Source: a virus (Duplodnaviria > Heunggongvirae > Uroviricota > Caudoviricetes). From it: DNA of 64,000 nucleotides. Positions 13,297 through 47,045 of the stretch are shown here, piece by piece. Position 1 is the first letter of the stretch. Each line of letters begins with the position of its first letter. The notes beneath the pieces are model-generated. The model did no database searches. It was not told where the DNA came from and saw only the letters and a program-made list of their open reading frames with translations. Made by a program: the position numbers and the translations under genes. Where the stretch lies: IMG/VR virus record IMGVR_UViG_3300031418_000001. One strand, written 5' to 3'.

Positions 13297-13643
13297 TGGA
13301 AAAAGAAAATATTAACGAAGATTACGATCAATCTGAGATTTATTCACGTGTAAAAGAAAAATCAGATAAACCATACCAACCGAATTTTATGAAGCGTGGA
13401 GCCACTACAACAATTACAATGGGTTCAGAAAAGTTCACCGTAATTGATCCGGTTGTGGTTGAAACTCTTATTCAGCAAGTAGCACAATTACAAACCACTA
13501 ATAACCAGCTAAAAGAACAGAGCCGATTACAAACTATAAAGATTTCTGAACTTGTACAGAAAATGAATGAACAGAGTATTCGCATTAATAAAATAGTTGG
13601 TGAGATTAGTAAAAATAGCTGGAGAGATAATGGATTATCGTAA
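13296..13643 (+). CDS. coiled-coil hypothetical protein
   Basis: Heptad-rich C-terminal half; coupled start. Confidence 0.65.
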   Translation: MEKENINEDYDQSEIYSRVKEKSDKPYQPNFMKRGATTTITMGSEKFTVIDPVVVETLIQQVAQLQTTNNQLKEQSRLQTIKISELVQKMNEQSIRINKIVGEISKNSWRDNGLS

Positions 13644-14253
13644 AGCCCATACGGACATTGACATTGATATGAAAAATCGTGATGATGTTCTTAAAGTACT
13701 TAATTGTGTAAGAAGTACCGAAACAATTACGGAAGATGGATTTACTGCACATAAAACCGGAATACATTTAGATAATATTCCGGTTGATCCAGTGAGCGGA
13801 TTAGCTGCAATTCCATATAAAGAAGCTGAAGCATTAGGCTATCAGAAAATTGACTTACTTAATGTAAGTGCGTATGATAATGTGCGAGACAGAGAACATC
13901 TAAAAGTACTTGCCACCACTGAACCTAATTGGGATTTATTTTTATATCCTGAGATTTGTGAGCAACTATTTCAGTTGAAAAACTATGTCTCGCTACTTAA
14001 TGTGTGGAAACCTAAGAGCATTGATGAATTGGCTATGATATTGGCTATGATTCGTCCAGGCAAAAGAAATTGCCAAACGTTGTATTCTTGGGATGAGGTA
14101 CGTGAGCAGATTTGGGATTATAGTACTGTTGCAACTGATGCAAATGGTAAGAAATTAAATTACTTCAAAAAACCACATGCTTATAGTTATAGTTTGTTAA
14201 TTATTGTTCAATTAAATGCATTGGTAGAGAAAATTACTTCTTCTTCCGTTTAA
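13630..14253 (+). CDS. DnaE/PolIII-alpha-like catalytic fragment (C-terminal part of a split mini-polymerase)
   Basis: TDIDID, HKTG, KIDLL, IRPG and FKKPHAYSY match DnaE PDFDVD, HAGG, KFDFL, FRPG and FNKSHSAAY. Confidence 0.85.
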   Translation: MDYRKAHTDIDIDMKNRDDVLKVLNCVRSTETITEDGFTAHKTGIHLDNIPVDPVSGLAAIPYKEAEALGYQKIDLLNVSAYDNVRDREHLKVLATTEPNWDLFLYPEICEQLFQLKNYVSLLNVWKPKSIDELAMILAMIRPGKRNCQTLYSWDEVREQIWDYSTVATDANGKKLNYFKKPHAYSYSLLIIVQLNALVEKITSSSV

Positions 14254-14599
14254 GTGCAATATTTCTTCTTTTTATACGTTTGGTCGGTAATTCTGATAAG
14301 GAAATTACTGGCCCTTGTACGTTGGTACAAGCATCTGTGTTAAAGCGTAGAGTATATTTTTCATATTCTTCCATTTCTTCACGCATAAAGAGTGAAATTG
14401 GAATAGCACGATTACTCTGCCACCACCATTGTTGTGCCAGTAAGATCAACTCTTTTTGTTTAGCTTCTGGCATATTATTAAAACAATACAAAGTAATGTA
14501 TTGCTTACTCTTGATTTTAAGCACCCCAATATACTCTTCACCATCGCATTCCAGGACGGTGATAAAAGGGAATGTAGGTTTAGTATTCATATTAAACAT
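14234..14599 (-). CDS. hypothetical protein
   Basis: 121 aa ORF filling the gap; TAAATA upstream on the minus strand. Confidence 0.7.
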   Translation of the reverse strand: MFNMNTKPTFPFITVLECDGEEYIGVLKIKSKQYITLYCFNNMPEAKQKELILLAQQWWWQSNRAIPISLFMREEMEEYEKYTLRFNTDACTNVQGPVISLSELPTKRIKRRNIALKRKKK

Positions 14600-14651
14600 C
14601 CAATAAATAAAGTAAATAACGATTTCATAATTTTATTTATAGGTGAATAAT

Positions 14652-15626
14652 ATGTCTCATTTCGGAGTATATACATACCCGTATAACCAAGAAGTAACGT
14701 TAGGTAACTTCAGTATGCCTTTTAATCAGAAAAAGGTGGTTATATACAGAGGTGCAAATAACCCACTTAGTTTCACTATACATAACGCCGATGGCAAGTA
14801 CACCTTATTAAAAGATAAAGAGTACTTAATCTTCAGTATATTCGATAACCGAAATGATACTAAGATCTTCGAAGTTCCGTTAGAAAAAACTAAACCATCG
14901 TGGGTATCAGAGGCTGGTCAGGCAAGACCAACTTTATCAATGGATAATAAAGTGTACTATACATGTGTTGTTCCTGCTGGAGTTATTCAGGATCTAAGTA
15001 TAGGTACAAAATACAGATGGAGCATTCGTAAAGTACTTGAAAATGATTCAGCTTTAGTTCCAAGTACACAGTATCTTTATACTGGTACAGCTTTTCAGGC
15101 AAGTGCTGAACTTGAAATTAGTAATTTAGCAGCACCAGAATTCGTAGGTAGTACTGAACTTAGTGAACAATCCCATGCTTCTTTTATTCCTGTAAAAGAT
15201 AAAGAAAAGCAAGATATAGCTAAAGGTTTAGTAGGTGAGTATGATGTACTTGCAAGTTATCCAGTACCAGCAGGCACACAATACGGAATGGTAGATGGAT
15301 TAAGTACAATCGCTTTCTACTTTGATAACTTTATTGGTCGGTATCAACTTCAGGGTTGCTTAAACAATGAAGTACCTAAAGATTCAGAAAACTACAAATG
15401 GTTTCCTATTAAACTTTGTGGATGTGAATACATTAAAAACGAGTTTGATGTAAATGGTGTACCTATTCCTATTAATGGAATTATTCCTTTTAACTTTAAG
15501 GGTAACTTTATGTGGGTTAGAGTTGTGGTATGTATTCCACCTACAATTAAAAATGTAACTCAGTTTACTGTACGTAAAGAATACAATCCTTATAATACGA
15601 TGCCTAAAGTACTAATTAGAAGATAA
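14652..15626 (+). CDS. hypothetical protein, probably virion structural
   Basis: Beta-rich ORF with TAAATA motifs upstream. Confidence 0.6.
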   Translation: MSHFGVYTYPYNQEVTLGNFSMPFNQKKVVIYRGANNPLSFTIHNADGKYTLLKDKEYLIFSIFDNRNDTKIFEVPLEKTKPSWVSEAGQARPTLSMDNKVYYTCVVPAGVIQDLSIGTKYRWSIRKVLENDSALVPSTQYLYTGTAFQASAELEISNLAAPEFVGSTELSEQSHASFIPVKDKEKQDIAKGLVGEYDVLASYPVPAGTQYGMVDGLSTIAFYFDNFIGRYQLQGCLNNEVPKDSENYKWFPIKLCGCEYIKNEFDVNGVPIPINGIIPFNFKGNFMWVRVVVCIPPTIKNVTQFTVRKEYNPYNTMPKVLIRR

Positions 15627-15627
15627 T

Positions 15628-15656
15628 TGAAACAATAAGTAATTGTGTGCTATACT
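15628..15656 (+). promoter_or_regulatory. phage promoter TGAAAC-N17-TATACT
   Basis: Recurrent motif upstream of primase. Confidence 0.75.
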
Positions 15657-15685
15657 ATCGGTATCTATAGGATGGATACGATAAT

Positions 15686-16714
15686 ATGAATGATGTGCAA
15701 AATATTTTAGCGGGGCTTATGAATAATCCGTGTCCACCTATTGGACGTTGGGTTAAACATAACTGCCCCGTTTGTCATAATGGACAATCAGGAAGGGTTC
15801 GTGGATCATATATCTTCGATAATGATGGATACGCCTTTCACTGTTTTAACTGTCAATACAAAGCAGGCTGGCGACCTGGAATGGTTATCGGTACTAAGTT
15901 GTTAGATTTCGCTGAAAAAAGTGGTGCGGGTTCTCATGAACTAATGCAGCTATCTTTAATATCTAAAGATATGGCTGATTCTGGTTTATATGAAATAGAA
16001 CAAAATACCAATTCAAGCATCTATCAGAAAATAACGCAACGGCAATTACCAAGCACCGCCAAATCATTTCTTGAATGGAGTACGTTAAGTTCAGTACCGA
16101 ATCAGTTTATTAAAGTTCTTGAGTCAGTTTATCAAAGAAATCCATATCTACTTGACTTGGATTTGTACTGGTGTCCTGAACAAGAGAATGATTTGTATCG
16201 TAGATATATCATACCTTACTATATTAATGGTGAGATTATTGGATATGCTGCACGTGATACAAAAGAGAAGTCAAAACTAAAGTACTTCAACCAAGTAAAT
16301 GTAAACACTTTTTATAATTTTGATTTAATGAATGACCCTCGCATAAAAACAATATATGTTACAGAAGGGGTTCTTGATGCTGCTTTATTAAATTGTATGG
16401 CTATTGGTTCATATGAAATGTCTGATATGCAGGTACAGCAACTTAAAATGGCTCAAGAACGTGGTAAGAGGGTTGTTATTATACCTGACCGTGATAAAGA
16501 TGGTATTAAAACAATAAATCAAGCACTGGATAATGGATTTTCTGTTTCATTACCAGATTGGGGAACTAAAAGAACACTTTATGGTGTAGAATATATTAAG
16601 GACTTTGAAGAAGCAACCAAGACATATGGAAGATTGTTTTGTGCTTTGTTAGTACAGAAAAGTATTATCAGTTCAGAGTTCGAAATACGGGTATTAATGA
16701 ATAAATGGATTTAG
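15686..16714 (+). CDS. DNA primase (gp61-like)
   Basis: Zn ribbon CPVC...CFNC; TOPRIM TEGVLDA and PDRD. Confidence 0.88.
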   Translation: MNDVQNILAGLMNNPCPPIGRWVKHNCPVCHNGQSGRVRGSYIFDNDGYAFHCFNCQYKAGWRPGMVIGTKLLDFAEKSGAGSHELMQLSLISKDMADSGLYEIEQNTNSSIYQKITQRQLPSTAKSFLEWSTLSSVPNQFIKVLESVYQRNPYLLDLDLYWCPEQENDLYRRYIIPYYINGEIIGYAARDTKEKSKLKYFNQVNVNTFYNFDLMNDPRIKTIYVTEGVLDAALLNCMAIGSYEMSDMQVQQLKMAQERGKRVVIIPDRDKDGIKTINQALDNGFSVSLPDWGTKRTLYGVEYIKDFEEATKTYGRLFCALLVQKSIISSEFEIRVLMNKWI

Positions 16715-16726
16715 CGGAGTATTAAA

Positions 16727-18199
16727 ATGGTATCACAGGAAGTGAAAAATTATGACCCAAATTTTCAGAAGTACATTCTGCATGTTATTTTCAATGAACC
16801 GGAAATTTTTGTGCGTTGTCAGGGTATTATTAAACCTGAATATTTTGACAAAGCGTATCAACCTACCGTTAAATTTGTTTTAGGATATGCTCAAAAATAT
16901 AATACCCTACCGCCATTGAAAGAAATTGAAGCAGAAACAACCGCAACTTTTGAAAAAGAAGAAATAAGCACACAACACCATCAAGGTCACTTAGATAAGA
17001 TTGAAAGTTTTTGTCGTCATAAGGCACTTGAACAAGCAGTTCATGAAGGTATGAAAGCAGTACAGGAACGTAAGTACGGCGTACTTGAACAGCTTGTAAA
17101 AGACGCTATGCAGGTATCACTACAGAACGATTTAGGTTCAAACTACTTCGAAGATCCTGAAGCTCGTATTCGTGCAATCTTTGATGAACAAGGCACAGTA
17201 AGTACTGGCTGGGTTGATGTAGATACACGTCTGTTTGGTGGATTTGGCCCTGGAGAACTTGAAATTTTTCTTGCTCCTTCAGGTTGTGGTAAATCAATGC
17301 TGATGCAAAACCTTGCTGTTAATTTCTCAGCACGAATGATGAACGGTGTATATATTTCTCTTGAACTTTCAGAGAACCTTGTAAACAACCGTATTGACAG
17401 TATGATGCTTGATCGTTCTAAAAAGAACATCCAGTGTAATATTGAAGATGTTGCAGCAGAGATTAAAGTACTTGAAAAGAAACGTGGTTCTTTTTATGTA
17501 AAACGTATGCCAGAGAGTTCTACTACAGTTCATGATATTCGTGCGTACCTTAAAGAATATCTGGTTAAAACTGGAATGGAACTACATTATCTTTGTGTGG
17601 ATTATCTTGATCTGTTAACTTCTCCGAAAGTTAGCAACTCATCTGATACATTCATGAAAGATAAATTTGTAGCAGAAGAATTACGTGCACTTGCTTCTGA
17701 GTTTAATATTGTAGTAATTTCTGCATCACAGCTTAACCGTGCTGGCGTAGATACAACTGAATATAGTCACTCAAACATTGCTGGTGGTATTTCTAAGATT
17801 TATACAGCAGATAACGTAATTGGTATTCGTAATACTGAATCCCTTCGTGCTCGTGGTGAAATTGTACTGGAGTTCCTTAAAACTCGTAACAGTTCCGGTT
17901 CGAACGTTAAATGCGGATTCAATGTAGATACTATGCGTGTATATGATCACCCTGAATCAACTAACGTTGGCTCAAATACTGCATTAAAGTATTCACCAAA
18001 AGAATTGAGTAATGCACTTAAAGCCCAAACTCAAGCTACTGTATCAGTAGCAACAGTTGATGTACCGGATGTATTAAATTCAAGTACTACCGATAATTCT
18101 GCACTAAATACTCAAAATAGTGGCAATGCACCTGTTAAGACCAACGGTATTAATAGTCTGCGTGATAAGCTGAAGAACAGAATGAACTCGGGAATCTAA
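16727..18199 (+). CDS. replicative DnaB-like helicase (gp41-like)
   Basis: APSGCGKS, YISLEL, VDYLDL, SASQLNR, KTRNS. Confidence 0.92.
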   Translation: MVSQEVKNYDPNFQKYILHVIFNEPEIFVRCQGIIKPEYFDKAYQPTVKFVLGYAQKYNTLPPLKEIEAETTATFEKEEISTQHHQGHLDKIESFCRHKALEQAVHEGMKAVQERKYGVLEQLVKDAMQVSLQNDLGSNYFEDPEARIRAIFDEQGTVSTGWVDVDTRLFGGFGPGELEIFLAPSGCGKSMLMQNLAVNFSARMMNGVYISLELSENLVNNRIDSMMLDRSKKNIQCNIEDVAAEIKVLEKKRGSFYVKRMPESSTTVHDIRAYLKEYLVKTGMELHYLCVDYLDLLTSPKVSNSSDTFMKDKFVAEELRALASEFNIVVISASQLNRAGVDTTEYSHSNIAGGISKIYTADNVIGIRNTESLRARGEIVLEFLKTRNSSGSNVKCGFNVDTMRVYDHPESTNVGSNTALKYSPKELSNALKAQTQATVSVATVDVPDVLNSSTTDNSALNTQNSGNAPVKTNGINSLRDKLKNRMNSGI

Positions 18200-18203
18200 T
18201 TCT

Positions 18204-18464
18204 ATGTCTAAGAAAGAAAAGCTACTTGATAGTATAATGAATTACAGTGCTCCCACTGATAAGGTACAGGCTTTAGGAAATCGGGCAAGTCATGCAATAA
18301 ATTCCATTATTAATTTACTGGAAGATATTGAAGATAATTTTGATGATGAAATAGCTGATGATTTACATCGTCGGTTATATTTGAGTATTAAAAATCGTGA
18401 CTACAGAAAATTTGAAAAAGGGTTAGAAAATATAACCCTTAATGAGAAACGGAAGCTCAAGTAA
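18204..18464 (+). CDS. hypothetical protein
   Basis: 86 aa ORF in operon context. Confidence 0.65.
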   Translation: MSKKEKLLDSIMNYSAPTDKVQALGNRASHAINSIINLLEDIEDNFDDEIADDLHRRLYLSIKNRDYRKFEKGLENITLNEKRKLK

Positions 18465-19156
18465 TGAAGAAAGCATTATTTTTATATAGTTGTTCTGGTA
18501 TTATGGAAGCACCTTGGCTATTAAATGGATATGAAGTATGGAGTTTTGACGGGCAACATGCACCTGGAATAACTCGTGATGGTAATCATGTTAAAGTTGG
18601 TATGTGGTTTGATGCTTATGATACAAAGAACCATGTACAAGATATAGTTAATATGGTTGGTGATGATGTAAAGTTTGTATTTGGTTTTCCAGAATGTACT
18701 CACATGGCTGTATCAGGTGCTGCACATTTTGCTAAGAAACTAAAGGCTAATCCAGCTATTCAGGCTGAATCTGTTGAACTGGCAAGACTCGTAATGTACT
18801 TAGGTGAAGCACTTGATGTTCCTTGGGGTTTAGAGAATCCAGTAAGTGTTCTGAGTACTATATGGCGACCATCTAACCATTCATTTCATCCTTATGAGTA
18901 CGGTGGTTATCTTCCTGCTAATGATGTACATCCATTATATCCAGAGTATATTGCTGCACGTGATGCATATCCTAAGAAAACATGCATATGGTCAGGTAAT
19001 GGATTCGTAATGCCTCCTAAAATTCCAGTACCAGTATCAGCAGGGTATAGTACTCAATATCAAAAGTTAGGCGGGAAATCTCTAAAGACAAAGAATATTC
19101 GTTCTGCAACACCTCGTGCTTTTGCTGAGGCAGTTTATCAATACAATAAAGTATAA
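18464..19156 (+). CDS. putative DNA cytosine methyltransferase
   Basis: FPECT (PC-like motif IV), ENPV (motif VI), KKTCIW, RSATPRAFAEA. Confidence 0.7.
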   Translation: MKKALFLYSCSGIMEAPWLLNGYEVWSFDGQHAPGITRDGNHVKVGMWFDAYDTKNHVQDIVNMVGDDVKFVFGFPECTHMAVSGAAHFAKKLKANPAIQAESVELARLVMYLGEALDVPWGLENPVSVLSTIWRPSNHSFHPYEYGGYLPANDVHPLYPEYIAARDAYPKKTCIWSGNGFVMPPKIPVPVSAGYSTQYQKLGGKSLKTKNIRSATPRAFAEAVYQYNKV

Positions 19157-19166
19157 GGAACTGAAT

Positions 19167-19322
19167 ATGAAAAAATTAAAAGAGAATGCAAGTTCCGGTG
19201 CTACAAGTGCTGGTGGTATTGCATCTGTTAGTACTGGATTAAATTTTCCTTTACTAACTCGTATGCCGAAGAGTAATTTCTTTGGATATAAAGAAGTAAA
19301 AAGCGATAAGAAAGGAAAATAA
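19167..19322 (+). CDS. small hypothetical protein, possible head protein
   Basis: AAGGA RBS; MKKLKE followed by NASSGATSAGGIA. Confidence 0.6.
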   Translation: MKKLKENASSGATSAGGIASVSTGLNFPLLTRMPKSNFFGYKEVKSDKKGK

Positions 19323-19323
19323 C

Positions 19324-19719
19324 ATGACACCATACACCTTTTATACAATTCATACTGTAATTGATATTGGTGATGGCAGAAATGTTGACGAAACCGAAAT
19401 ACTTAATTCAAGTAAAAACCTTACCCGTCTTCTGGAAAGTATTATGTCTTATTCATATCCAATGATGGTAAGTCTATATATTGCAGATGTGGATTTGTCA
19501 AAGAGTAATAACAGCGTGTATTACTCTTTACCTCGTTTATGGGGAGAATGTAAAATTAGTACTTTTAAATTTGCATTACCTCTTGATATAAACATTTCCA
19601 TTGACGGTGTTCCATTAGTTATGCCATGTAATGTTAATGACATACGTATTTCCAAGTTTAAACTTTCTGGTTCTGACCGTAATATCAGTATTACCAAACA
19701 AACCTTTTCGTGTGCCTGA
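19324..19719 (+). CDS. hypothetical protein
   Basis: 131 aa ORF with RBS. Confidence 0.65.
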   Translation: MTPYTFYTIHTVIDIGDGRNVDETEILNSSKNLTRLLESIMSYSYPMMVSLYIADVDLSKSNNSVYYSLPRLWGECKISTFKFALPLDINISIDGVPLVMPCNVNDIRISKFKLSGSDRNISITKQTFSCA

Positions 19720-19773
19720 TAAATAGAAATATATCTACGCACCGGAAAGGTTTTTTATTTGGAGAATAATTTA

Positions 19774-20637
19774 ATGGATATTCAAGAGTTAAGTACACAA
19801 TTACAGAAATTTGCAGACGCACAGGGTTTAAACGTTGATGTTGATGCAATTCTACAAACTATGGATGCTGGTGATTTTGTTGAAATTAATCAGGCCATTG
19901 ATAATAGCGATAACAGAAGTATTTTAAAGATTCTTCAGAAATATCGTGCACGTGCTATGGAATCGTATCAGTACTTTAGTGGTTCAAGACTTATTGAATC
20001 AGATGAATTACGTGTTATTGATGAAATGGGATTTAATGAATTAGTAGAAAATTATCACTCTTTTGTACAAGGTGCATTACATGATCATTCACATTTATCA
20101 TTAAGTGAAATGAAAGCACTTGTTAAAGAAGATCTTACCAGTACTTTAGGCAACGCTATCACCAATAGCGATAATCAAAATCAAAGCACGGTAAATCCTG
20201 AAGTTCAAGCTAAAATGAAACAAGCTGAACTACAAAAGAATACCGGTAATCCTAATTTCAACGTGACTGTTCCTAATGGAACCGGATCATCAGTTGAACA
20301 GGTACTTGGTATTGATGTTGGTAGTAACCCTAATCAGTCACTCGTTGTTACTAAAGATCCTAATCAAGCTAATCAGGTTCAGGTATTTGGTTTAAATGAT
20401 GTTGAGCCAGTACAAGAAGATGCAATGGATGTGCTTAATATGGCAGTTCAGGGTGCTGATGATGAACTAAAAGATAATGTTGATGAAAACTGTGAAGACC
20501 CTGCATTACAGGCAGAACCAGAAATGCAAATGAATCCTGAAGCTGAAATAATTGTAGTACAGGATGAAGCACCACAGGAAGATGATATTCTTAGTCAAAT
20601 TAAGGCATTTTGTTCAAGATTAAATGGGACAAACTAA
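19774..20637 (+). CDS. hypothetical acidic protein (late, possibly head)
   Basis: TAAATA at 19720; GGAG RBS. Confidence 0.65.
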   Translation: MDIQELSTQLQKFADAQGLNVDVDAILQTMDAGDFVEINQAIDNSDNRSILKILQKYRARAMESYQYFSGSRLIESDELRVIDEMGFNELVENYHSFVQGALHDHSHLSLSEMKALVKEDLTSTLGNAITNSDNQNQSTVNPEVQAKMKQAELQKNTGNPNFNVTVPNGTGSSVEQVLGIDVGSNPNQSLVVTKDPNQANQVQVFGLNDVEPVQEDAMDVLNMAVQGADDELKDNVDENCEDPALQAEPEMQMNPEAEIIVVQDEAPQEDDILSQIKAFCSRLNGTN

Positions 20638-20855
20638 TGAGAACGAGACAAACTGAACAGGGATATACAGTTATTGTTTCTAATGAGGAATACCGACTTC
20701 TGCGTAAGATTGATGCTCATCGTAATTTCCCTGTTGAAGAACTTGATGATTACTATCAGGAATTGGGTGAAAAACTCTATTCTAAATCTCTTCTAAATAA
20801 AGTACAAAAGGATGATAAAGAATATTTTGTATCATTAAAAAGGAAGGATAAATGA
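20637..20855 (+). CDS. hypothetical protein
   Basis: TAATG coupling. Confidence 0.65.
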   Translation: MRTRQTEQGYTVIVSNEEYRLLRKIDAHRNFPVEELDDYYQELGEKLYSKSLLNKVQKDDKEYFVSLKRKDK

Positions 20856-21643: not shown

Positions 21644-21677
21644 ATAGTATAGAATTTTTTTATAAAGGAATTATAAA

Positions 21678-22283: not shown

Positions 22284-22298
22284 TTTCGGAGGTACTTT

Positions 22299-22622: not shown

Positions 22623-22649
22623 TCCCCTCATAGTAGGGGATTTTTATTT
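22621..22649 (+). terminator. intrinsic terminator
   Basis: AATCCCCT...AGGGGATT followed by a T tract. Confidence 0.7.
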
Positions 22650-22670
22650 GTATATAGACTAAGAAACAAA

Positions 22671-22699
22671 TGAAACATATGGAAATTATGTGCTATACT
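22671..22699 (+). promoter_or_regulatory. phage promoter TGAAAC-N17-TATACT
   Basis: Recurrent motif. Confidence 0.75.
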
Positions 22700-22713
22700 T
22701 AAGGAGAAGTTAA

Positions 22714-23406: not shown

Positions 23407-23409
23407 GGA

Positions 23410-35253: not shown

Positions 35254-35254
35254 T

Positions 35255-37498: not shown

Positions 37499-37518
37499 TA
37501 GCTGACTCCAAGGCATAA

Positions 37519-38070
<552 letters not shown>

Positions 38071-38071
38071 C

Positions 38072-39667: not shown

Positions 39668-39668
39668 C

Positions 39669-40295
39669 ATGGAACGTACAAACGAAGATATTAAATTATG
39701 GGCTAATATAGTTCAAAATGCAGAACTTGAAAAAGATATTGAAGATGCTGAAGGTCAGACTGTTATCAGTACGGGTCGCCAGGAACTTGATGAAATGCCG
39801 ATGGTACATGATATATATGATGGTGATCGTGAGGATGCTGACGCCACGTTAGGTTTTCAAACTGATGGCCTGGACTCATCTAAACTGGTTCCTGTAGCCG
39901 ATCATGGTGCGTTCAAGACCTTCCGTAACCCACGCGGCGATGCCTACCTTGCCTATGACCAAAATGGCAAATGCATTGGTCTGTTACGTGGATCTAAGAC
40001 AGGTACTATATTACAGGTTGATAATACTATTTCATATAGTCAATCAGGTGTGAAAGGTGTAATGTTTAATCTTTTTATGGATTGTATTTTACAAGGTAAT
40101 AAGATTATCAGTGATGTTACACAATCTCCTGATGCAAAAAACTTTTGGCAAAGATTAATTAGTACTGGACATATTGTATATGTAGTAGTTTACGGTGAAG
40201 TTAAAGGTAAAGCTACTCCACAAAATATGGAAAAGCTATGGACTAATGATATCGAAAATGATGCTGCTGATATTCGGTTATTACTGGTGAAATAA
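39669..40295 (+). CDS. hypothetical protein with a GNAT-like C-terminal domain
   Basis: KGVMFNLF...ISDVTQSPDAKNFWQRL pattern. Confidence 0.45.
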   Translation: MERTNEDIKLWANIVQNAELEKDIEDAEGQTVISTGRQELDEMPMVHDIYDGDREDADATLGFQTDGLDSSKLVPVADHGAFKTFRNPRGDAYLAYDQNGKCIGLLRGSKTGTILQVDNTISYSQSGVKGVMFNLFMDCILQGNKIISDVTQSPDAKNFWQRLISTGHIVYVVVYGEVKGKATPQNMEKLWTNDIENDAADIRLLLVK

Positions 40296-40297
40296 AT

Positions 40298-40330
40298 AAA
40301 AATGGAGTACTTAGGTACTCCATTTTTTTT
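40298..40330 (+). terminator. intrinsic terminator
   Basis: ATGGAGTAC-TTAG-GTACTCCATTTTTTTT. Confidence 0.8.
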
Positions 40331-40331
40331 A

Positions 40332-40359
40332 TGAAACAAATCTAAAAATGTGCTATACT
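40332..40359 (+). promoter_or_regulatory. phage promoter TGAAAC-N16-TATACT
   Basis: Recurrent motif upstream of topoisomerase. Confidence 0.7.
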
Positions 40360-40396
40360 ATAATGGCTAAGAAACAAAATAAGGAAATCAAATAAA

Positions 40397-42370
40397 ATGG
40401 CAAAGGAAAAGAAAAATTCTTCCGTACTTCAGGAACATGACGTTCAGCGGTTATCGGATTATTCACATGCTCGTATTCGTACTGAAATGTACTTAGGTTC
40501 TCGTTCTGCTCATGAACAACCAGTTTTGATTTTTGGCGAAAATGATTATCAAGTCAAAAATGTAACATGGGTTCCTGCACTACTCACCGCATTTCGTGAG
40601 ATTGTTGATAACTCGTTAGATGAATTTACTAAAGCTGGTATTAAAGATGCAGTGCTAAGAGTACAATACGACGAAAGTACTTTACAGTTTATTATTTCAG
40701 ATAATGGTCGTGGTATTCCAATTGACTATGTTCCTGAATATAGTCAGCATGTGTGTACTATGGTACTTACTGAAACTAAAACAGGTCGTAACTTCGACGA
40801 TTCACAACGTAAGAAAACATCAGGACAAAACGGCCTCGGTGGTTCAATTACTATGTGTGTTAGTTCTGAAGCTGAATTAGAAGTACATCGTGTAGGGCGT
40901 CCATATAAAACTGCATCAGCAAATGATGAATATAATGGGATGTACAAATTTACACAGAAGTTTAGTGAAGGTAATGAACTGTTTCCTGAACTTAATATTC
41001 AAGACCCTGTTATTCGTAAAGTAAAAGCTGATAAAACAGGAACAACTATTAGTTTCCGTTTAAGTCCAGCGGTATTTAAAAATCGTCAGTTACCAACTGA
41101 ACTGATTTATAGTATTCTGAAAGAAATTGCTGTTGCTAACCCAACATATAAAATCTTCCTGAATGAAAATCGTATTCAGGGACGTGGTACAGCAGAAAAG
41201 GCACTGTTCGGTATTTCTAAACCTATGAGTCTTGTTGTTGACGAAGGTGAATTCCACAGTACTTTCTATGTAGTGCCTAATGCAGTAGCAGACCAAACTA
41301 CAAACTTCCATATGCACGGTATTGTTAACAACGTTCCTGCATTTGACGGTGGTAATCACTTAGACACCTTTAAAAAGAATTTTGCACTTGGTGTTATTAC
41401 TGCACTTGAGAAAGAATCAAAGAAACGTAAACTAAAGCCTAACCGTTCTGATGTTGAAGAAGGTCTTTTGATCTATAACATTACTACGATGAATGCTCCG
41501 TACTTTTCTTCTCAGACAAAATCTAAACTTATTAACGAAGAAGTAATTAAACCAATTGCTAATGCAATGAGTGTTGAGTTCTATGATGAACTTGTCAAGA
41601 AAAACAAAACTTGGATTGATGAGATCTTTGAACGTACTTCAGAACGTACAAATAAGAAAGAAGCTGAAGAAGATCGTAAAGCTGCTAAGAAACTACTAAA
41701 GGCTAAAGTTGCTAAACTTCGTGATGCAGTTAATACAGATCGTTCTGTATGTGAACTGTTTATTACGGAAGGTGATTCAGCAAGTGGTAACTTAATTGCA
41801 AGTCGTGATCCGACTAAACATGCTATTCTTCCATTACGTGGTAAAATTAAATCAGTAAATGGTAAAGAAAAAGTAGCAGATTTGATGGCATCCGAAAGCC
41901 TCAAAGATATTATGGTAAGTATTAACCTGATTCCAGGCGAGAAAGCTGTTCGTGCAAACCTAAACTATGGTCGTATTAATATCAGTACTGACTCAGATGA
42001 AGATGGTAAAAATATTCAAGCACAGATTTGTAATTTTCTTTATACATTCTGGCCTGAATTATTCCAAGATTTAGACAATCCGTTTGTTTATATCTTTAAC
42101 ACTCCATTCATTATCCTGAAGAAAGGAAAACAAGTTAAGTACTTCTATGGTCATCAAGAACATGAATATAATCCTGATGATTGGAAGGATTGGGAAACAA
42201 CACGTGCTAAAGGGTTAGGTACTCTTAAGAAAGAGCACTTTGAAGATGCAATCTATAGTGGTTATACACTTCCTATTGTTGATGATGGTACTCTATCTGA
42301 AGTACTTGATTTAATCTTCAACTCTGACCGTGCTGATGATCGTAAAGAATGGATGAAAGACAAAGAATAA
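40397..42370 (+). CDS. type II topoisomerase ATPase/TOPRIM subunit (gp39+60-like)
   Basis: EIVDNSLDE, DNGRGIP, GQNGLG, TEGDSA, PLRGK, DSDEDG, KGLG. Confidence 0.95.
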   Translation: MAKEKKNSSVLQEHDVQRLSDYSHARIRTEMYLGSRSAHEQPVLIFGENDYQVKNVTWVPALLTAFREIVDNSLDEFTKAGIKDAVLRVQYDESTLQFIISDNGRGIPIDYVPEYSQHVCTMVLTETKTGRNFDDSQRKKTSGQNGLGGSITMCVSSEAELEVHRVGRPYKTASANDEYNGMYKFTQKFSEGNELFPELNIQDPVIRKVKADKTGTTISFRLSPAVFKNRQLPTELIYSILKEIAVANPTYKIFLNENRIQGRGTAEKALFGISKPMSLVVDEGEFHSTFYVVPNAVADQTTNFHMHGIVNNVPAFDGGNHLDTFKKNFALGVITALEKESKKRKLKPNRSDVEEGLLIYNITTMNAPYFSSQTKSKLINEEVIKPIANAMSVEFYDELVKKNKTWIDEIFERTSERTNKKEAEEDRKAAKKLLKAKVAKLRDAVNTDRSVCELFITEGDSASGNLIASRDPTKHAILPLRGKIKSVNGKEKVADLMASESLKDIMVSINLIPGEKAVRANLNYGRINISTDSDEDGKNIQAQICNFLYTFWPELFQDLDNPFVYIFNTPFIILKKGKQVKYFYGHQEHEYNPDDWKDWETTRAKGLGTLKKEHFEDAIYSGYTLPIVDDGTLSEVLDLIFNSDRADDRKEWMKDKE

Positions 42371-42395
42371 TATTACCCGATAAGGATATCAAATA

Positions 42396-43790
42396 ATGGC
42401 TAAAGCAACTAAGAAACCAATTGTACAAAGACAAGAAAACCGAACTTATCTAAAAGAACCAAGTTCAACTTATATTAACCGTACAAGTCTCGAATATAGT
42501 ACCTATACTCTTGAACGTGCACTTGTCGGTATTGATGGGCTGAAGTCAGCCCAACGTAAAGCAATCTATGCAATCACCAAAACTAATGGTAAAATTAAAA
42601 CCCTTAGTCTTGCTGGTAAAATGATCGAAATGGAAATCTATGTTCACGGTGATAGCTCGGCGAGTGGTACACTTTCACAACTCGCATCGCCTGTAGTGAA
42701 TAACTATCCATTGATTTTAGGTGAAGGTTCCTTTGGTACTTGTGCCTCACCTGAACCAGCAGCACCACGTTATACGTATGTTCGTAAATCAAGCATTACC
42801 GAAAAACTACTTTTACCGGATTTGAATATTATCCCAATGAAGGATAACTATGATGGTTCAACACAAGAACCTCGTTATTTCCTTCCAATTGTTCCGGTCG
42901 CATTGTTAGGTACTGATGGCATTTCAGTTGGTTATAAACCTTCTATTTTACCTCGTAAGATTGAAGATATTATCGACAATACCATTGCAGCAATTGATAA
43001 GAAAGAAATGAAATTCATGACTCCATATTATCGTTCATATGGTGCTAACGATTTTGTTGAATATCTCGGTGAAAGTAAGTACATCATTTATGGTAAAGCT
43101 GAAGTTATTGATGGAAGTACTGTACGGGTTACGGGATTACCACATAAGATTGACCGTGAGAAATTTATTGAGAAATTGATTAAGATGCAGGATACTGGTG
43201 AGATTCGTGATTATGATGATTCCAGTACTGACGTAATTGATATTACCATTAAAATGCCTCGCGGTGCAGCTAACGGATGGGATGAAGCAAAAGTACTTAA
43301 TTACTTCTCATTGCACAGCAAAGTTACCGAAGCAATTATTTGTCTAAGTGAGAATGAGAAAGTTCGTACTTATGTTGATCCAAATGATTTAATCCGTGAT
43401 TACGTTGAATTTCGTTTTGGTTATTATGTCAAGCGTTATGAAAAATTACTTCAGGACGCATCTGATGAACTTCGTTATAAACTTCTCATCAAAGAGTGTT
43501 TTGATAATGAAATTCCAGCTAAACTTAAATCATTAAAGAACCGTGCTGAATTAGTACAATCAGTTACTGAATTGAATGAAGTAATCCAGGCATCAAAAGG
43601 TAACATTGATAATATCGTTAGCTTCCCATCCTATCGCTGGACTGAAGAATATTACGATGCAGTACTAAATGATATTAATGAGTTGGTTACGTCAATTGGT
43701 AAGTATGAAAATATGCTACAGAACCAAAATCTAATTTGGGATGTATACCGTGATGAGCTAAAAGAACTGCGTAAAACCAAGTTTGAATAA
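42396..43790 (+). CDS. type II topoisomerase breakage-reunion subunit (gp52-like)
   Basis: DGLKSAQRK, YVHGD, AAPRYT catalytic Tyr. Confidence 0.93.
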   Translation: MAKATKKPIVQRQENRTYLKEPSSTYINRTSLEYSTYTLERALVGIDGLKSAQRKAIYAITKTNGKIKTLSLAGKMIEMEIYVHGDSSASGTLSQLASPVVNNYPLILGEGSFGTCASPEPAAPRYTYVRKSSITEKLLLPDLNIIPMKDNYDGSTQEPRYFLPIVPVALLGTDGISVGYKPSILPRKIEDIIDNTIAAIDKKEMKFMTPYYRSYGANDFVEYLGESKYIIYGKAEVIDGSTVRVTGLPHKIDREKFIEKLIKMQDTGEIRDYDDSSTDVIDITIKMPRGAANGWDEAKVLNYFSLHSKVTEAIICLSENEKVRTYVDPNDLIRDYVEFRFGYYVKRYEKLLQDASDELRYKLLIKECFDNEIPAKLKSLKNRAELVQSVTELNEVIQASKGNIDNIVSFPSYRWTEEYYDAVLNDINELVTSIGKYENMLQNQNLIWDVYRDELKELRKTKFE

Positions 43791-43794
43791 AAGA

Positions 43795-43822
43795 AAAAAG
43801 CCCCTTACATAAGGGGCTTTTT
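43795..43822 (+). terminator. intrinsic terminator
   Basis: AAAAAGCCCCTTA-CA-TAAGGGGCTTTTT. Confidence 0.85.
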
Positions 43823-43824
43823 CA

Positions 43825-43832
43825 TATAAATA
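43825..43832 (+). promoter_or_regulatory. T4-like late promoter TATAAATA
   Basis: Exact consensus about 30 nt upstream of 43864. Confidence 0.6.
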
Positions 43833-43863
43833 TCTGTAACATTCGAATGTTGGAGATATTTAT

Positions 43864-46257
43864 ATGGCTAATTTTAGTCCTAAGTGGGATTTAGTACTTG
43901 ACAGTACCACAATAATTGAAGGTCAAAGTACATACGCACGATTACGTCTATCTAAGCAAAGCAGCATAGATCCTAATTCCGATTATAATTTAAATACAGA
44001 CCAGTACTTACAGATTAGCTACACTATTAATCTAAACGGTGATGCAGTACAGGAAAGAGATTACAACATTTATGTTGGTGAAAATATCACATCCTTAATG
44101 CCTATGGCAGACGCTGGTACTGGTAATAATAAAATAAACGGAACACACGTAGTCAAATTTAATAAAAAAGAATTCAATCTAAGTTCTGATTACTTAGATA
44201 CCTATTTTATCGAGATTGTTTGTCCAGAAGATGGAATATGGGATGATTCACAAAATATATCTATTGTACTGAATTCAGTACAGTTGTATCAGGTAGATGG
44301 TGAACAAATACTTTCAATATCTGATAGTGGTATTATAGGTAACAGTACCGTCAAACTGTTATATGATAATACATTTGACACTTGGGTTACACCAGATTTA
44401 ACTACTCACCAAACAAATTTGTATACTATTGGTGAAGTTGCATACGGTTCAGAAAGCAGACTCTTTATTCAGGCTTATGGTTTCTCTCGGCCTTATGTTG
44501 AGAATGAAGACCGATTCATTGATGATCTATCAAATCGGGTTTTTGTTCCAACCTATAAACTCATTGATCTTGATATTGCTGCTATACCAGCTAACCATAT
44601 GACAGGTAAAGGTACAGTACTTAAACTTGACTCTAATGATGTAATATCCGAAGAAATGAAAGTACTTGTGATGGATGACACTACAAGTTTCGTAGATAGT
44701 GGATTAAAGTTTAATGGTAATGGTCAATTACTACAATCTTTATTATATGACTCAGAACCAGTTGATGCTTATTTTAAAGCAGAAATTGTCCCATTAACTT
44801 ATTATTATGCAGATCCATCTTCAGCATATTATGAAGGTAAAAGATTTAAAGCATATCAGATGTGGATTGCTCCTGATGACGTTTCGGTATTTGCAGAAAC
44901 ATCACAGCCTAAACCTGGTCATTTGTATCAACTTAAAGATACAAAGATATACCCGTATGTGGCAAAAACAGAAATCTATCAAGGTGAGTCTAAACTTATA
45001 TTTGATGAATCAGCTTGGAACGATTTAGGTGTATATTCAGAAAGTATGGGTGCATCTATTATTGGATTACAAAAAGTATTCAGAATAGTACTTAATAATG
45101 ACGATGGTTCAGGAATCAGCTTTGATACTGATCCTAATTTGGGTGTTATTCATGTAGGTGAATATTTTGGACATTCTAAATTTGCTAAAATTACTGCAAG
45201 TGGTTCAGACTTAATAACTTATACTATTAGTGATAAGTCTACTGATGATATTACAAAGTACAATCTGAACCTTACTGCTGATGGGTACATGGTTGGTACT
45301 GCATATTGTAAGACAATTGATTTTGATGAGAATGATGAAGTACCTTTAAAATTTACTGTAATAGCAACGAATAAGAAAGGAACTTCAATTGAACAGGAAT
45401 TCCAATTAACTATTATTCCAGGCTTTAGCCAGAATTACATTAGTAGTACACTCAATATGAGTACTGCATTTGAACGTAAATATTTTCAGTGCATTAGTTC
45501 GCAACAGTTTAACAACTACAAGTTTTACCGTGAATCAGACCCGCGTTATGGAAGACAAAAAGTACCTTCAATTCTGTTGAAAGAAAACTTTGTTAATCCT
45601 GCACAAGATTGGACTGATATTAAAGATGTTAAGAAGCGTTTACGTGATGGTATTATAGACACCGTTAATGGTGCTGTTATTCCTGATAGTGTGTTTCAGT
45701 ACGTTGTAGGTAATTATAAGGTAATTACTGCTGTTGATAACAACGGTAATGAATTATATGATGTACTTTACAGAGAAATGCTTCCATTTGGTTCAAATCC
45801 AAAACCAGAAACTGACCCAAGAAAATACAACGTTCAAGATTATTTCACATTAACTGAAGTATTCGGTATTCGTCAGAACGTTTTCAATATTCTCGGTGAA
45901 GATGTAAGGAATTTGAATGCAGATCCAGATGACTTCGAAAATCGTGCGGTAAGTGTTCCTGAACTCGATAACGTGAGTGTGGCAATGGTAGACACAGTAC
46001 CACGCTTTATGTCTCATGCTATGACGGATACAGGCGTTAAAAACGGCTATCGTCCTATGATGGTAGTTGCGTACTGTAATGCAGGTGAGGGTGATTTATT
46101 ATTTGATAACTTGGTTACATCATCAGAACATAAAAATATGTTAGGTGAAATAATTGAGGTACAGGTAGTGAACTTTACCTATTTCAGTGAAGAAGAAGGA
46201 AAGTATATTCAACAAGAATTTGCTATTCCTATCCCATTTAAATCACTAATGGCATAA
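43864..46257 (+). CDS. large virion structural protein (baseplate/tail-like)
   Basis: 797 aa, beta-rich with an Ig-like segment; late promoter. Confidence 0.55.
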   Translation: MANFSPKWDLVLDSTTIIEGQSTYARLRLSKQSSIDPNSDYNLNTDQYLQISYTINLNGDAVQERDYNIYVGENITSLMPMADAGTGNNKINGTHVVKFNKKEFNLSSDYLDTYFIEIVCPEDGIWDDSQNISIVLNSVQLYQVDGEQILSISDSGIIGNSTVKLLYDNTFDTWVTPDLTTHQTNLYTIGEVAYGSESRLFIQAYGFSRPYVENEDRFIDDLSNRVFVPTYKLIDLDIAAIPANHMTGKGTVLKLDSNDVISEEMKVLVMDDTTSFVDSGLKFNGNGQLLQSLLYDSEPVDAYFKAEIVPLTYYYADPSSAYYEGKRFKAYQMWIAPDDVSVFAETSQPKPGHLYQLKDTKIYPYVAKTEIYQGESKLIFDESAWNDLGVYSESMGASIIGLQKVFRIVLNNDDGSGISFDTDPNLGVIHVGEYFGHSKFAKITASGSDLITYTISDKSTDDITKYNLNLTADGYMVGTAYCKTIDFDENDEVPLKFTVIATNKKGTSIEQEFQLTIIPGFSQNYISSTLNMSTAFERKYFQCISSQQFNNYKFYRESDPRYGRQKVPSILLKENFVNPAQDWTDIKDVKKRLRDGIIDTVNGAVIPDSVFQYVVGNYKVITAVDNNGNELYDVLYREMLPFGSNPKPETDPRKYNVQDYFTLTEVFGIRQNVFNILGEDVRNLNADPDDFENRAVSVPELDNVSVAMVDTVPRFMSHAMTDTGVKNGYRPMMVVAYCNAGEGDLLFDNLVTSSEHKNMLGEIIEVQVVNFTYFSEEEGKYIQQEFAIPIPFKSLMA

Positions 46258-46267
46258 GGAAAATATT

Positions 46268-46567
46268 ATGTTTAATCCATTCTTTGATACATCATCCTTG
46301 TCAGACAAGGAATTATTGAATAAGATAGATGAAATGAGTGCTCGTCTTGTACGAGCACGAATGAGCGGTATAAATTTTGAAATTATTGAGAACATGAAGA
46401 TTGTGATTATGTCATGTGAAGAAGAACTACGCACTCGTGCTGGTACTAAATCACTTCAAGAAATTCACAAAGAAGATTCTTGTATCTTTGAAAGTGACCG
46501 AGATTATACTAAAGAAGCTAAAACCGATGAAAGTACAAAAAAATCGATCAGTAGACCCCAATGGTAA
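46268..46567 (+). CDS. hypothetical protein
   Basis: 99 aa ORF with AAGGA RBS. Confidence 0.7.
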   Translation: MFNPFFDTSSLSDKELLNKIDEMSARLVRARMSGINFEIIENMKIVIMSCEEELRTRAGTKSLQEIHKEDSCIFESDRDYTKEAKTDESTKKSISRPQW

Positions 46568-47045
46568 TGTACTTCTTGATTTAAACGCAGCCGTGTATTC
46601 TATCAATGCAGGCTGCAACATTCATGATATACAAATACAGGATTTAAATTTAGATGAAATTACATTGTTTAATAAGCATTGTGCTGAGTTTGGGTTTGAA
46701 GAACGTATACTAAATAACGAAGTTAATCATGAAAACAATCATAACCTTTGGAAGTATGATCCAAGTTATGATAATATTAATCTTGAAGATTATTTTTTAA
46801 ATTTATGTAGTACTGAAATTGAGAAAGAAAGAGTACTATATGAATTAAAGTTGTACAAGGAGTACAACATGACAAAACTACTACGTTGTATGCTATGGCT
46901 GGTACATACCTTTGAAGAGAACAATATCTTTTGGGGTGTAGGCCGTGGTAGTTCAGTGAGTAGTTATTGCTTGTACTTAATAGGTTTGCATATGGTGGAC
47001 TCAATTAAGTACGACTTAAATGTACATGAATTTTTGAAATGGTAA
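46527..47045 (+). CDS. DnaE/PolIII-alpha-like fragment (N-terminal part of a split mini-polymerase)
   Basis: ERVLYEL...WGVGRGSSVSSYCLYLIGLHMVDSIKYDLNVHEFL matches DnaE [34 protein letters not shown]. Confidence 0.85.
   Translation: MKVQKNRSVDPNGNVLLDLNAAVYSINAGCNIHDIQIQDLNLDEITLFNKHCAEFGFEERILNNEVNHENNHNLWKYDPSYDNINLEDYFLNLCSTEIEKERVLYELKLYKEYNMTKLLRCMLWLVHTFEENNIFWGVGRGSSVSSYCLYLIGLHMVDSIKYDLNVHEFLKW

What the first reader, a model, noticed from the sequence alone, without database searches (positions are those of the whole stretch)
13630..47045. Intein-free split, miniaturised DnaE (C-family) polymerase core in two genes about 32 kb apart
Seen: 46527-47045 ends with the DnaE block GRGS...LY..G...D...YDL..EFL and then stops. 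13630-14253 starts MDYRKAHTDIDID, the motif that follows directly in DnaE (E. coli ...FERFLNPERVSMPDFDVD). The two ORFs therefore abut in the alignment. The second ORF keeps all three catalytic Asp (DxD and KIDLL), RPG, and the HxxxY nucleotide-selection motif. Only about 30 aa separate DxD from the HxxG motif, where DnaE has over 100 aa of thumb. No intact PHP, clamp-binding or OB domain is visible, and the total is about 380 aa against about 1160. Inference: a two-subunit, probably non-processive nucleotidyltransferase (priming, gap repair or DNA modification) beside a T4-type replisome, with the DEDDh gene at 8418 a possible proofreader. Each piece may already carry a PolIII-alpha label in relatives; the point is their complementarity.
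Basis: partly seen in the sequence, partly recalled or inferred. Interest (0 to 1): 0.85.

Follow-up and report, generated by a model that had tools for sequence, protein, structure and literature searches.

The report
Split mini Pol III polymerase, jumbo phage
Two small genes 32 kb apart in this giant Rak2/GAP32-like phage encode the two halves of a stripped-down bacterial-type (Pol III alpha) DNA polymerase core. The feature is real and conserved, but it was described from sequence in 2021 and its function has not been tested.

Summary
Window 46527-47045 (172 aa) matches the first part of the DnaE palm and ends exactly where window 13630-14253 (207 aa) begins. By structure comparison the junction is E. 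coli DnaE residue 394|394, Taq 456|456 and M. tuberculosis 414|414.

- The C-half keeps invariant DxDxD, K-x-D, RPG and KKxHxxxY motifs. The N-half keeps the invariant GVGRGSS loop.
- Both halves are under strong purifying selection (dN/dS about 0.05-0.06) and evolve at the same amino-acid rate.
- They co-occur in about 96 phage records and stay separate (11-182 kb apart) in five divergent phages.
- They are predicted to form one composite active site (ipSAE 0.90, controls 0.00). This pass may only reflect likeness to solved DnaE structures.
- No PHP or HhH domain was found in the relatives searched (PHP six, HhH five). Those relatives all carry a family B polymerase.

This is the "minimal, split DNA polymerase III alpha" of group 2.2 jumbo phages (Iyer et al. 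2021, Viruses 13:63). This scan has already noted it on many other genomes. The small addition here is three natural fused forms of 375-376 aa from metagenomes, nested among split forms. The enzyme's activity, its role and any link to the DEDDh exonuclease remain untested.

The parts
46527..47045 (+). N-half gene (172 aa). Residues 78-172 are the first part of the Pol III alpha palm, the NTP-binding subdomain. Residues 1-77 are a phage-specific N-terminal extension with no DnaE counterpart found.
   Evidence: PF07733 positions 20-95, E 4e-9. phrog_11127 'DNA polymerase' E 2.5e-73. The model aligns with E. coli DnaE 278-394, Z 8.9-9.7. Homologues start at this ATG and end at EFLK(W).
46935..46955 (+). 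GVGRGSS loop (residues 137-143), the G[GS] nucleotide-binding motif of the Pol-beta-like palm.
   Evidence: G137, G139, R140, G141 and S142 are invariant and S143 nearly so in 26 homologues of 36-85% identity. The loop lies in the predicted interface with the C-half.
13630..14253 (+). C-half gene (207 aa). It holds the rest of the palm with the three metal-binding aspartates and a shortened fingers part. GGAGA lies 6 bases before the ATG.
   Evidence: phrog_11778 'DNA polymerase' E 1.2e-89. The family profile hits DnaE structures at E 2.7e-4. AF2 model pLDDT 94. The model aligns with Taq DnaE 456-841, Z 9.3. RBS seen.
13654..13668 (+). DIDID (D9, D11, D13), which aligns with the Taq DnaE PDIDTD block.
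   Evidence: D9 and D11 are invariant and D13 is present in 33 of 34 sequences. Aligned to Taq 460-467.
13846..13854 (+). KID (K73, D75), which aligns with the Taq KMDFLGL block and so supplies the third catalytic aspartate.
   Evidence: K73 and D75 are invariant. Aligned to the Taq KMDFLGL block.
14053..14061 (+). RPG (R142-G144), the fingers motif that aligns with LYRPGP of DnaE.
   Evidence: P143 is invariant and R142 nearly so. Aligned.
14167..14190 (+). KKPHAYSY (K180-Y187), which aligns with FNKSHAAAY of DnaE.
   Evidence: H183 is invariant and K180 nearly so. Aligned to Taq 809-824. Lies in the predicted interface with the GRGS loop.

Best explanation
The two genes encode the two subunits of a minimal Pol III alpha (C-family) nucleotidyltransferase. 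It is cut inside the Pol-beta-like catalytic core.

- The N-half supplies the helical scaffold and the GVGRGSS nucleotide-binding loop.
- The C-half supplies the strand with DxDxD, the strand with K-x-D and the shortened fingers elements (RPG, KKxHxxxY). In DnaE these fingers elements are thought, from memory, to hold the incoming dNTP.
- The subunits are made separately and assemble without covalent joining into one composite active site. There is no intein.
- The enzyme has no PHP domain, thumb, distal fingers, clamp-binding/HhH domain or OB domain. It works beside the phage's own family B replicase.
- It most likely acts as a short-patch, template-directed DNA polymerase in replication or repair.

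Shown here: homology, exact abutment, conservation, co-occurrence and natural fusions. Inferred: assembly in the cell, catalytic activity, template dependence and biological role.
For: - Sequence and fold place the N-half on E. coli DnaE 278-394 and the C-half on 394-784.
- The catalytic and nucleotide-binding motifs are invariant across homologues down to about 25-36% identity.
- The breakpoint is the same in all 26 N-halves aligned.
- dN/dS is 0.05-0.08. dN is equal for the two halves: 0.111 and 0.111 against XaC1, 0.27 and 0.25 against GAP32.
- tblastn finds the C-half in 96 phage records and the N-half in 100, with matching counts per host genus. Those of the four extra N-half records that were listed are partial records or full-length DnaE of unrelated phages.
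- In XaC1, PA5oct, Atu_ph07, XacN1 and Slickus01 both halves are present once each, as separate frames 33, 44, 182, 15 and 11 kb apart.
- Three natural fused proteins of 375-376 aa (78-81% identical to one another) occur on four contigs from four samples. They join the halves as ...KEFIK-DNKEGIYNIA-DFDID....
- The fused gene sits at the C-half locus: its downstream antisense gene and structural gene are homologous to the window's.
- On a tree of 112 C-halves the fused clade (support 100) is nested in a clade with 9 split forms (support 96).
- Complex prediction gave ipSAE 0.90 in three runs against a best control of 0.00. That mark was reached by 58 of 80 solved complexes and 2 of 110 mismatched pairs. 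The runs share at least 93% of contacts and the partner's pLDDT is at least 89. My own alignments were used, so these counts hold only roughly.
- All six relatives searched have a family B polymerase. No PHP domain was found in those six and no HhH_6 domain in the five searched for it.
- Iyer et al. 2021 reached the same reading.
Against: - No biochemical or genetic test exists in the literature I could search.
- The thumb and the DNA-duplex-binding domains of DnaE are missing, so template-directed synthesis is not assured.
- The complex score may come from the model's memory of single-chain DnaE structures, and it says nothing about the cell.
- Pfam alone barely sees the C-half (PF17657, E 0.02, below the cut-off).
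- The window's own full genome is not held. Absence of other DnaE domains and presence of PolB therefore rest on relatives. PolB is not inside the window.
Confidence: 0.82

Rival explanations
1. The heterodimer is an active nucleotidyltransferase but not a template-copying DNA polymerase. It could be a terminal transferase, a DNA-end or DNA-modification enzyme, or a maker of a nucleotide signal or decoy in phage-host conflict.
For: The thumb, the distal fingers and all duplex-binding domains are missing. The palm belongs to the Pol-beta nucleotidyltransferase superfamily, which contains many non-templated enzymes (established knowledge). A full PolB replicase is already present in relatives.
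Against: The fingers motifs retained and invariant (RPG, KKxHxxxY, FQL block) are DnaE-specific blocks that I recall facing the incoming dNTP and template. The C-half keeps its place next to primase and DnaB helicase in Rak2-like phages, PA5oct, Atu_ph07 and Slickus01.
Confidence: 0.13
2. The two proteins act independently. For example, the N-half could be a non-catalytic mimic or regulator and the C-half a stand-alone enzyme.
For: The genes are 11-182 kb apart and not co-transcribed.
Against: The halves co-occur strictly in complete genomes and have equal dN. Natural fusions join them in the DnaE order. The C-half lacks the G[GS] nucleotide-binding loop of the fold, and the N-half lacks every metal ligand.
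Confidence: 0.03
3. The ORFs are decaying remnants of a captured dnaE gene, or the missing DnaE domains are encoded elsewhere and rebuild a normal polymerase.
For: Only fragments of DnaE are seen, and annotators label them inconsistently ('hypothetical protein' or 'DNA polymerase III alpha').
Against: dN/dS is about 0.05 with saturated synonymous sites. Catalytic residues are invariant across hundreds of homologues. Lengths and ends are constant. No PHP (six relatives), HhH_6 (five) or further PF07733 or PF17657 piece above the cut-off (two) was found.
Confidence: 0.02

Closest known systems
Minimal split DNA polymerase III alpha of group 2.2 jumbo phages (Iyer, Anantharaman, Krishnan, Burroughs, Aravind 2021, Viruses 13:63, PMC7824862)
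   Same: It is the same object. An N-terminal NTP-binding unit and a C-terminal Mg- and template-binding unit are separate proteins from distant genes. No other Pol III domains are present, and it sits alongside a family B polymerase in T4-like jumbo phages, including Atu_ph07 and gammaproteobacterial phages. The window's proteins are 60-86% identical to those of XaC1, GAP32, 121Q and RaK2.
   Different: Nothing essential differs.

Added here:
- residue-level junction mapping;
- a conserved breakpoint;
- selection measures;
- presence in a 141-kb phage that is not jumbo-sized (Slickus01);
- a small clade of naturally fused forms of 375-376 aa. The passages of the 2021 paper that I read do not mention fused forms.
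Bacterial DnaE / PolC (C-family replicative polymerases; e.g. PDB 2HNH, 3E0D, 5LEW, 3F2B)
   Same: Same palm fold, the same order of motifs (GRGS, DxD, KxD, RPG, KSHxxxY) and the same fingers core.
   Different: It has 379 aa in two chains against about 1,160 in one. It lacks the PHP domain, the thumb, about 100 aa of fingers and everything beyond about E. coli residue 784. It has an extra 77-aa N-terminal segment. It accompanies a family B replicase and is not the sole replicase.
Two- and three-gene full-size DnaE of other uncultured jumbo phages
   Same: DnaE is cut through the active site just before the catalytic aspartates without a working intein. One such lineage is also said to have re-fused.
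   Different: Those are described as full-size replicative DnaE enzymes and the only polymerase of their phage. Here the enzyme is the minimal form next to a PolB. I did not examine those loci.

Membership tests
Split minimal Pol III alpha of group 2.2 jumbo phages (Iyer et al. 2021) | Stand-alone N-terminal unit equal to the NTP-binding part of the Pol III alpha palm | tested here: met
   PF07733 positions 20-95, E 4e-9. The model aligns with E. coli DnaE 278-394, Z 8.9-9.7. GVGRGSS is invariant.
Split minimal Pol III alpha of group 2.2 jumbo phages (Iyer et al. 2021) | Stand-alone C-terminal unit with the Mg-binding aspartates and the template-binding subdomain | tested here: met
   D9, D11 and D75 are invariant and D13 nearly so. 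Profile hits to DnaE structures at E 2.7e-4. The model aligns with Taq 456-841, Z 9.3.
Split minimal Pol III alpha of group 2.2 jumbo phages (Iyer et al. 2021) | The two units are encoded by distantly located genes | tested here: met
   13630-14253 and 46527-47045 are separated by 32,274 bases. They are 11-182 kb apart in five other phages.
Split minimal Pol III alpha of group 2.2 jumbo phages (Iyer et al. 2021) | No other Pol III alpha domains in the genome | tested here: inconclusive
   No PHP domain in six relatives and no HhH_6 domain in five. No second PF07733 or PF17657 piece above the cut-off in GAP32 or XaC1. No second copy of either half inside the window. The window's own full genome is not held.
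Split minimal Pol III alpha of group 2.2 jumbo phages (Iyer et al. 2021) | Accompanied by a family B DNA polymerase and a T4-type replisome | tested here: inconclusive
   PolB is present in all six relatives searched. The window holds gp32-like SSB, UvsX-like RecA, primase, DnaB, topoisomerase II and a clamp loader. PolB itself is not inside the window. By synteny with GAP32 it would lie about 20 kb upstream.
Bacterial DnaE/PolC replicative polymerase | N-terminal PHP domain | tested here: not met
   The N-half model aligns from E. coli residue 278 onward. No PF02811 match in either protein or in six related genomes.
Bacterial DnaE/PolC replicative polymerase | Palm with G[GS] loop and three catalytic aspartates | tested here: met
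   The palm is built from two chains.
Bacterial DnaE/PolC replicative polymerase | Thumb domain between DxD and the second palm segment | tested here: not met
   D13 to H41 is 28 residues. In the profile match the second block resumes at Taq 602, with no convincing counterpart for the roughly 80-130 Taq residues before it. 201 model residues span 386 Taq residues.
Bacterial DnaE/PolC replicative polymerase | Complete fingers, clamp-binding/HhH and OB domains | tested here: not met
   The C-half ends at about E. coli 784 / Taq 841. PF17657 matches only positions 42-80 of 166, below the cut-off. No PF14579 match in five relatives. The OB domain was not searched for separately.
Split-intein-joined DnaE (cyanobacterial type) | Intein halves at the C-end of the first and the N-end of the second protein | tested here: not met
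   The N-half aligns with DnaE to its last residue, and the C-half aligns from residue 1-2. That leaves no room for intein fragments.

The most novel reading that the evidence does not exclude
The heterodimer, and the natural 375-aa fused form, may be a truly active, thumb-less, template-directed DNA polymerase. That would make it by far the smallest C-family polymerase.

It may serve as the primer-extension enzyme of the lagging strand. In this reading it takes RNA primers from the neighbouring primase-DnaB module and hands them to the family B replicase, much as DnaE serves PolC in Firmicutes. The phage-specific 77-residue N-terminal segment of the N-half would stand in for the missing DNA-holding parts.
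Probability: 0.2. Interest if true: 0.7.

Novelty: already known. Interest (0 to 1): 0.3.

Why it matters
If it is active, this would be a DNA polymerase active site assembled from two separately encoded chains and reduced to about a third of the size of its cellular relatives. That would make it a natural minimal model of the bacterial replicase core, and Iyer et al. suggest it as a picture of its ancestral state. It also raises the question of why phages that already have a complete T4-type replisome keep a second polymerase under strong selection. None of this is new as an idea, because it was published in 2021. The fused forms of 375-376 aa found here are a convenient single-chain construct for the first biochemical test.

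Tried and rejected
- **Own genome.** It is not held, so whole-genome questions were asked of relatives.
- **Longer relatives of the N-half.** The word-index search found none. That was a false negative, because the exhaustive HMMER search with the C-half found a fused form.
- **N-half profile against PDB sequences.** It gave nothing at E 0.01, and the single sequence gave only E 2.3. Foldseek on either half alone gave only weak E-values. The homology rests on Pfam, the C-half profile and VIA-align.
- **Deep alignment for folding the fused protein.** MAFFT misaligned the N-halves onto the C-half region (A4 and A6), so the fused form was not folded.
- **Promoter, terminator and TATAAATA scans.** Counts were at chance level, so nothing can be said about expression class.
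- **Genes upstream of the fused gene.** They are not homologous to the genes upstream of either half in the window.
- **Intein-fold lead.** An earlier scan note mentions a free-standing intein-fold protein in the C-half cassette. A lenient Pfam scan of the cassette genes showed no Hint or intein match.
- **Weak sub-threshold hits in GAP32.** These were PF07733 at 56.6 kb with two stops (E 0.008) and PF17657 in a 558-aa frame at 201 kb (E 0.016). I took them as chance and did not follow them.
- **Supplement of Iyer et al.** It is not held, so accession-level identity with their Fig. 3b could not be checked.
Full report
**What is there.** The window carries two intact, co-oriented ORFs. The first, 13630-14253 (207 aa, GGAGA 6 bases before the ATG), I call the C-half. 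The second, 46527-47045 (172 aa), I call the N-half. The window comes from a Rak2/GAP32/121Q-like jumbo phage. The nearest record is Xanthomonas phage XaC1, at 85-86% protein identity for both genes.

**Check of the observation by sequence.**
- The N-half matches Pfam DNA_pol3_alpha (PF07733) over profile positions 20-95 of 260 (E 4e-9, above the gathering score). The match runs to the last residue.
- NCBIfam DnaE models place it at about positions 314-394.
- Pfam hardly sees the C-half (PF17657, E 0.02). A profile of 34 diverse homologues does hit the DnaE structures of Thermus aquaticus, M. tuberculosis and E. coli (E 2.7e-4 to 5e-3).
- Those hits fall in three collinear blocks: PDIDTDF, KMDFLGL...FQLES...LYRPGP and FNKSHAAAY.

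**Check of the observation by structure.**
- The AlphaFold models have mean pLDDT 84.5 (N-half) and 94.0 (C-half).
- VIA-align puts N-half residues 78-172 on E. coli DnaE 278-394 (Z 8.9-9.7, rmsd 3.0, 94 aligned). It puts them on M. tuberculosis DnaE1 307-414 (Z 10.5), Taq 297-456 and PolC 823-965.
- It puts C-half residues 2-205 on Taq 456-841 (Z 9.3, rmsd 4.5, 201 aligned), M. tuberculosis 414-837, E. coli 394/401-784 (Z 8.3) and PolC 966-1304. The next unrelated chain scores Z 3.5.
- The two proteins therefore abut to the residue in four different solved polymerases. Neither end has room for intein pieces.
- The N-half begins at about E. coli residue 278, near where I recall the DnaE palm beginning, so the PHP domain is absent.
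- About 185 Taq residues between 456 and 841 have no counterpart. These correspond to the thumb and roughly 100 residues of fingers. Everything beyond about E. coli residue 784 is missing.
- N-half residues 1-77 have no DnaE counterpart.

**Conservation.**
- In 26 N-halves of 36-85% identity, G137, G139, R140, G141 and S142 are invariant. Nearly all of these proteins end at EFLK(W), so the breakpoint is fixed.
- In 34 C-halves of 24-49% identity, D9, D11, H41, K73, D75, P128, A135, P143 and H183 are invariant. D13, R142 and K180 are nearly so.
- Against XaC1, dN/dS is 0.062 for the C-half and 0.051 for the N-half, with dN 0.111 for both. Against GAP32, dN is 0.270 and 0.250. Synonymous sites are saturated, so the ratios are rough but clearly far below 1.

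**Co-occurrence and split state.**
- tblastn finds the C-half in 96 phage records and the N-half in 100. The counts per host genus match (Escherichia 34/34, Pseudomonas 11/11, Erwinia 8/8, Salmonella 8/8 and so on).
- Among the extra N-half records, those listed are partial records or weak hits to full-length DnaE of unrelated phages.
- XaC1, PA5oct, Atu_ph07, XacN1 and the 141-kb Alishewanella phage Slickus01 each have one N-half and one C-half. They are separate open frames 33, 44, 182, 15 and 11 kb apart.
- In XacN1 and Slickus01 the N-half lies upstream of the C-half, the reverse of the order in the window. The split has therefore survived genome rearrangement.

**Other DnaE parts and the main replicase.**
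- No PHP match was found in six related genomes. No HhH_6 match was found in the five searched, and no further PF07733 or PF17657 piece above the cut-off in the two searched.
- All six have a family B polymerase.
- The window holds one copy of each half and no PolB. By synteny with GAP32, PolB lies about 20 kb upstream of the C-half, outside the window.
- The window's own full genome is not held.

**Natural fusions.**
- The exhaustive HMMER search with the C-half returned a 375-aa protein whose residues 190-372 match the C-half. Its residues 11-180 match the window's N-half (38% identity, E 9e-26).
- Two more fused proteins of 376 aa were then found. The three are 78-81% identical to one another and lie on four contigs from four samples.
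- The junction reads ...KEFIK-DNKEGIYNIA-DFDID..., with a linker about as long as the eight residues that precede DIDID in the window's C-half.
- The fused gene sits at the C-half locus. It is followed by homologues of the window's antisense gene 14234-14599 (E 2e-8) and of the structural gene 14643-15626 (E 5e-8).
- On a tree of 112 C-halves the fused clade (SH-aLRT 100) is nested in a clade with nine split forms (96). That clade is in turn nested in larger groups (91-92).
- Unless the root lies on the fused branch, the fusion is secondary. I left out proteins shorter than 183 or longer than 235 residues, and the chimeric-looking P0248.

**Predicted assembly.**
- With my own alignments, the pair scored ipSAE 0.90 in three runs. 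The best of three controls scored 0.00.
- That mark was reached by 58 of 80 solved complexes and by 2 of 110 mismatched pairs. These counts hold only roughly, because my own alignments were used.
- The runs share at least 93% of contacts, and the partner's pLDDT is at least 89.
- The GRGS loop (residues 134-145) touches the DxD strand (2-16) and the KKPH helix (180-193). N-half residues 1-35 and 66-77 are also in the interface.
- DnaE structures with both parts in one chain are solved, so this pass may reflect that likeness. It does not show that the proteins bind in the cell.

**Context.**
- The C-half lies in a replication and recombination block. The block runs gp32-like SSB, UvsX-like RecA, DEDDh ExoX-type exonuclease (8418-9224), helicase, five small genes, the C-half, an antisense gene, a virion protein, primase and DnaB.
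- The order C-half, antisense gene, structural gene, primase and helicase recurs in XaC1, PA5oct, Atu_ph07 and Slickus01.
- The N-half lies between topoisomerase II and the clamp loader.
- Promoter scans were at chance level.

**What it most likely is and does.** It is a two-chain minimal Pol III alpha core with a composite active site. It is kept under strong selection next to a complete T4-type replisome. The retained DnaE-specific fingers motifs favour template-directed dNTP addition. The missing thumb and duplex-binding domains argue for low processivity or a need for partners. I know of no test of its activity, role or partners, and I tested none here. The suggested link to the DEDDh exonuclease has no support: the exonuclease is of the ExoX/RNase T type, and I recall that in bacterial Pol III epsilon docks on the PHP domain, which is absent here.

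[quoted passage not shown] - They note that it has no other Pol III domains and sits beside a family B polymerase. They suggest a role in synthesis of one strand or in repair.
- Their group 2.2 includes Atu_ph07 and gammaproteobacterial jumbo phages.
- RefSeq already labels both genes "DNA polymerase" in GAP32, 121Q, RaK2, CBB and others.
- I found no later experimental work in the held library.
- This scan has noted the same system on many other genomes, with the same verdict.

**Verdict.** The reading as complementary halves of one enzyme is correct, but it is already published. The proposed activities and the proofreader remain speculation. The fused forms of 375-376 aa are a small addition and a practical handle for a first assay.

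Noticed in passing
window 14234-14599 (-): A small antisense gene (121 aa, phrog_11637, basic C-terminal tail) overlaps the 3' end of the C-half tail-to-tail. A reverse-strand gene of similar size sits in the same place in XaC1, PA5oct, Atu_ph07, Slickus01 and next to the fused polymerase genes. Homology was tested only for the fused contig L014 (28% identity, E 2e-8). Its function is unknown, and it could be a partner or mere synteny.
   Followed up: partly
L018 record (Atu_ph07) about 212.3-213.7 kb; L020 record (Slickus01) 3.6-5.1 kb; L017 record (PA5oct) 217.6-221.4 kb: The family B polymerase of these relatives matches PF00136 in two separate open frames: 578+418 aa, 578+322 aa, and 825+379 aa about 2.5 kb apart. 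The main replicase therefore also seems to be split or interrupted in some of these phages.
   Followed up: no
window 8418-9224 (+): A DEDDh exonuclease with RNase_T and ExoX-like C-terminal domains (phrog_192, 'DNA polymerase exonuclease subunit'). XacN1 has an epsilon-like gene 2.3 kb downstream of its C-half. No test of a link to the mini polymerase was made.
   Followed up: partly
window 12595-13296 (+): A 233-aa protein of the conserved cassette upstream of the C-half (phrog_11058). It starts with a weak C2H2-type zinc-finger-like motif (CPFCNKKFKRESTLASHKC; Pfam E about 1e-3, below the cut-off).
   Followed up: no
window 11227-13643 (cassette upstream of the C-half): An earlier scan note on a related genome says this conserved cassette contains a free-standing, splicing-dead intein-fold protein. 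Pfam at E up to 10 showed no Hint or intein match in any of the cassette genes. No fold was run.
   Followed up: partly
window 43825-43832 (+) and 47488-47808 (+): A TATAAATA (T4-late-type) motif lies just upstream of the 797-aa virion gene that precedes the N-half, with no predicted terminator in between. A Cpn10/gp31-like co-chaperonin gene lies 440 bases downstream of the N-half.
   Followed up: no
protein P0248 (metagenome, 233 aa): Its first ~110 residues are a normal C-half N-terminus (DFDVDID ... KLDVLNN). The rest is unrelated sequence. It is either a chimeric assembly or a truncated or recombined C-half, and it was left out of the tree.
   Followed up: no
record MH494197.1 (Escherichia phage CMSTMSU): Both halves match only in 2-3 pieces, at 46% and 66% identity, unlike all other coliphage relatives. 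That suggests frameshifts or sequencing errors in that record.
   Followed up: no
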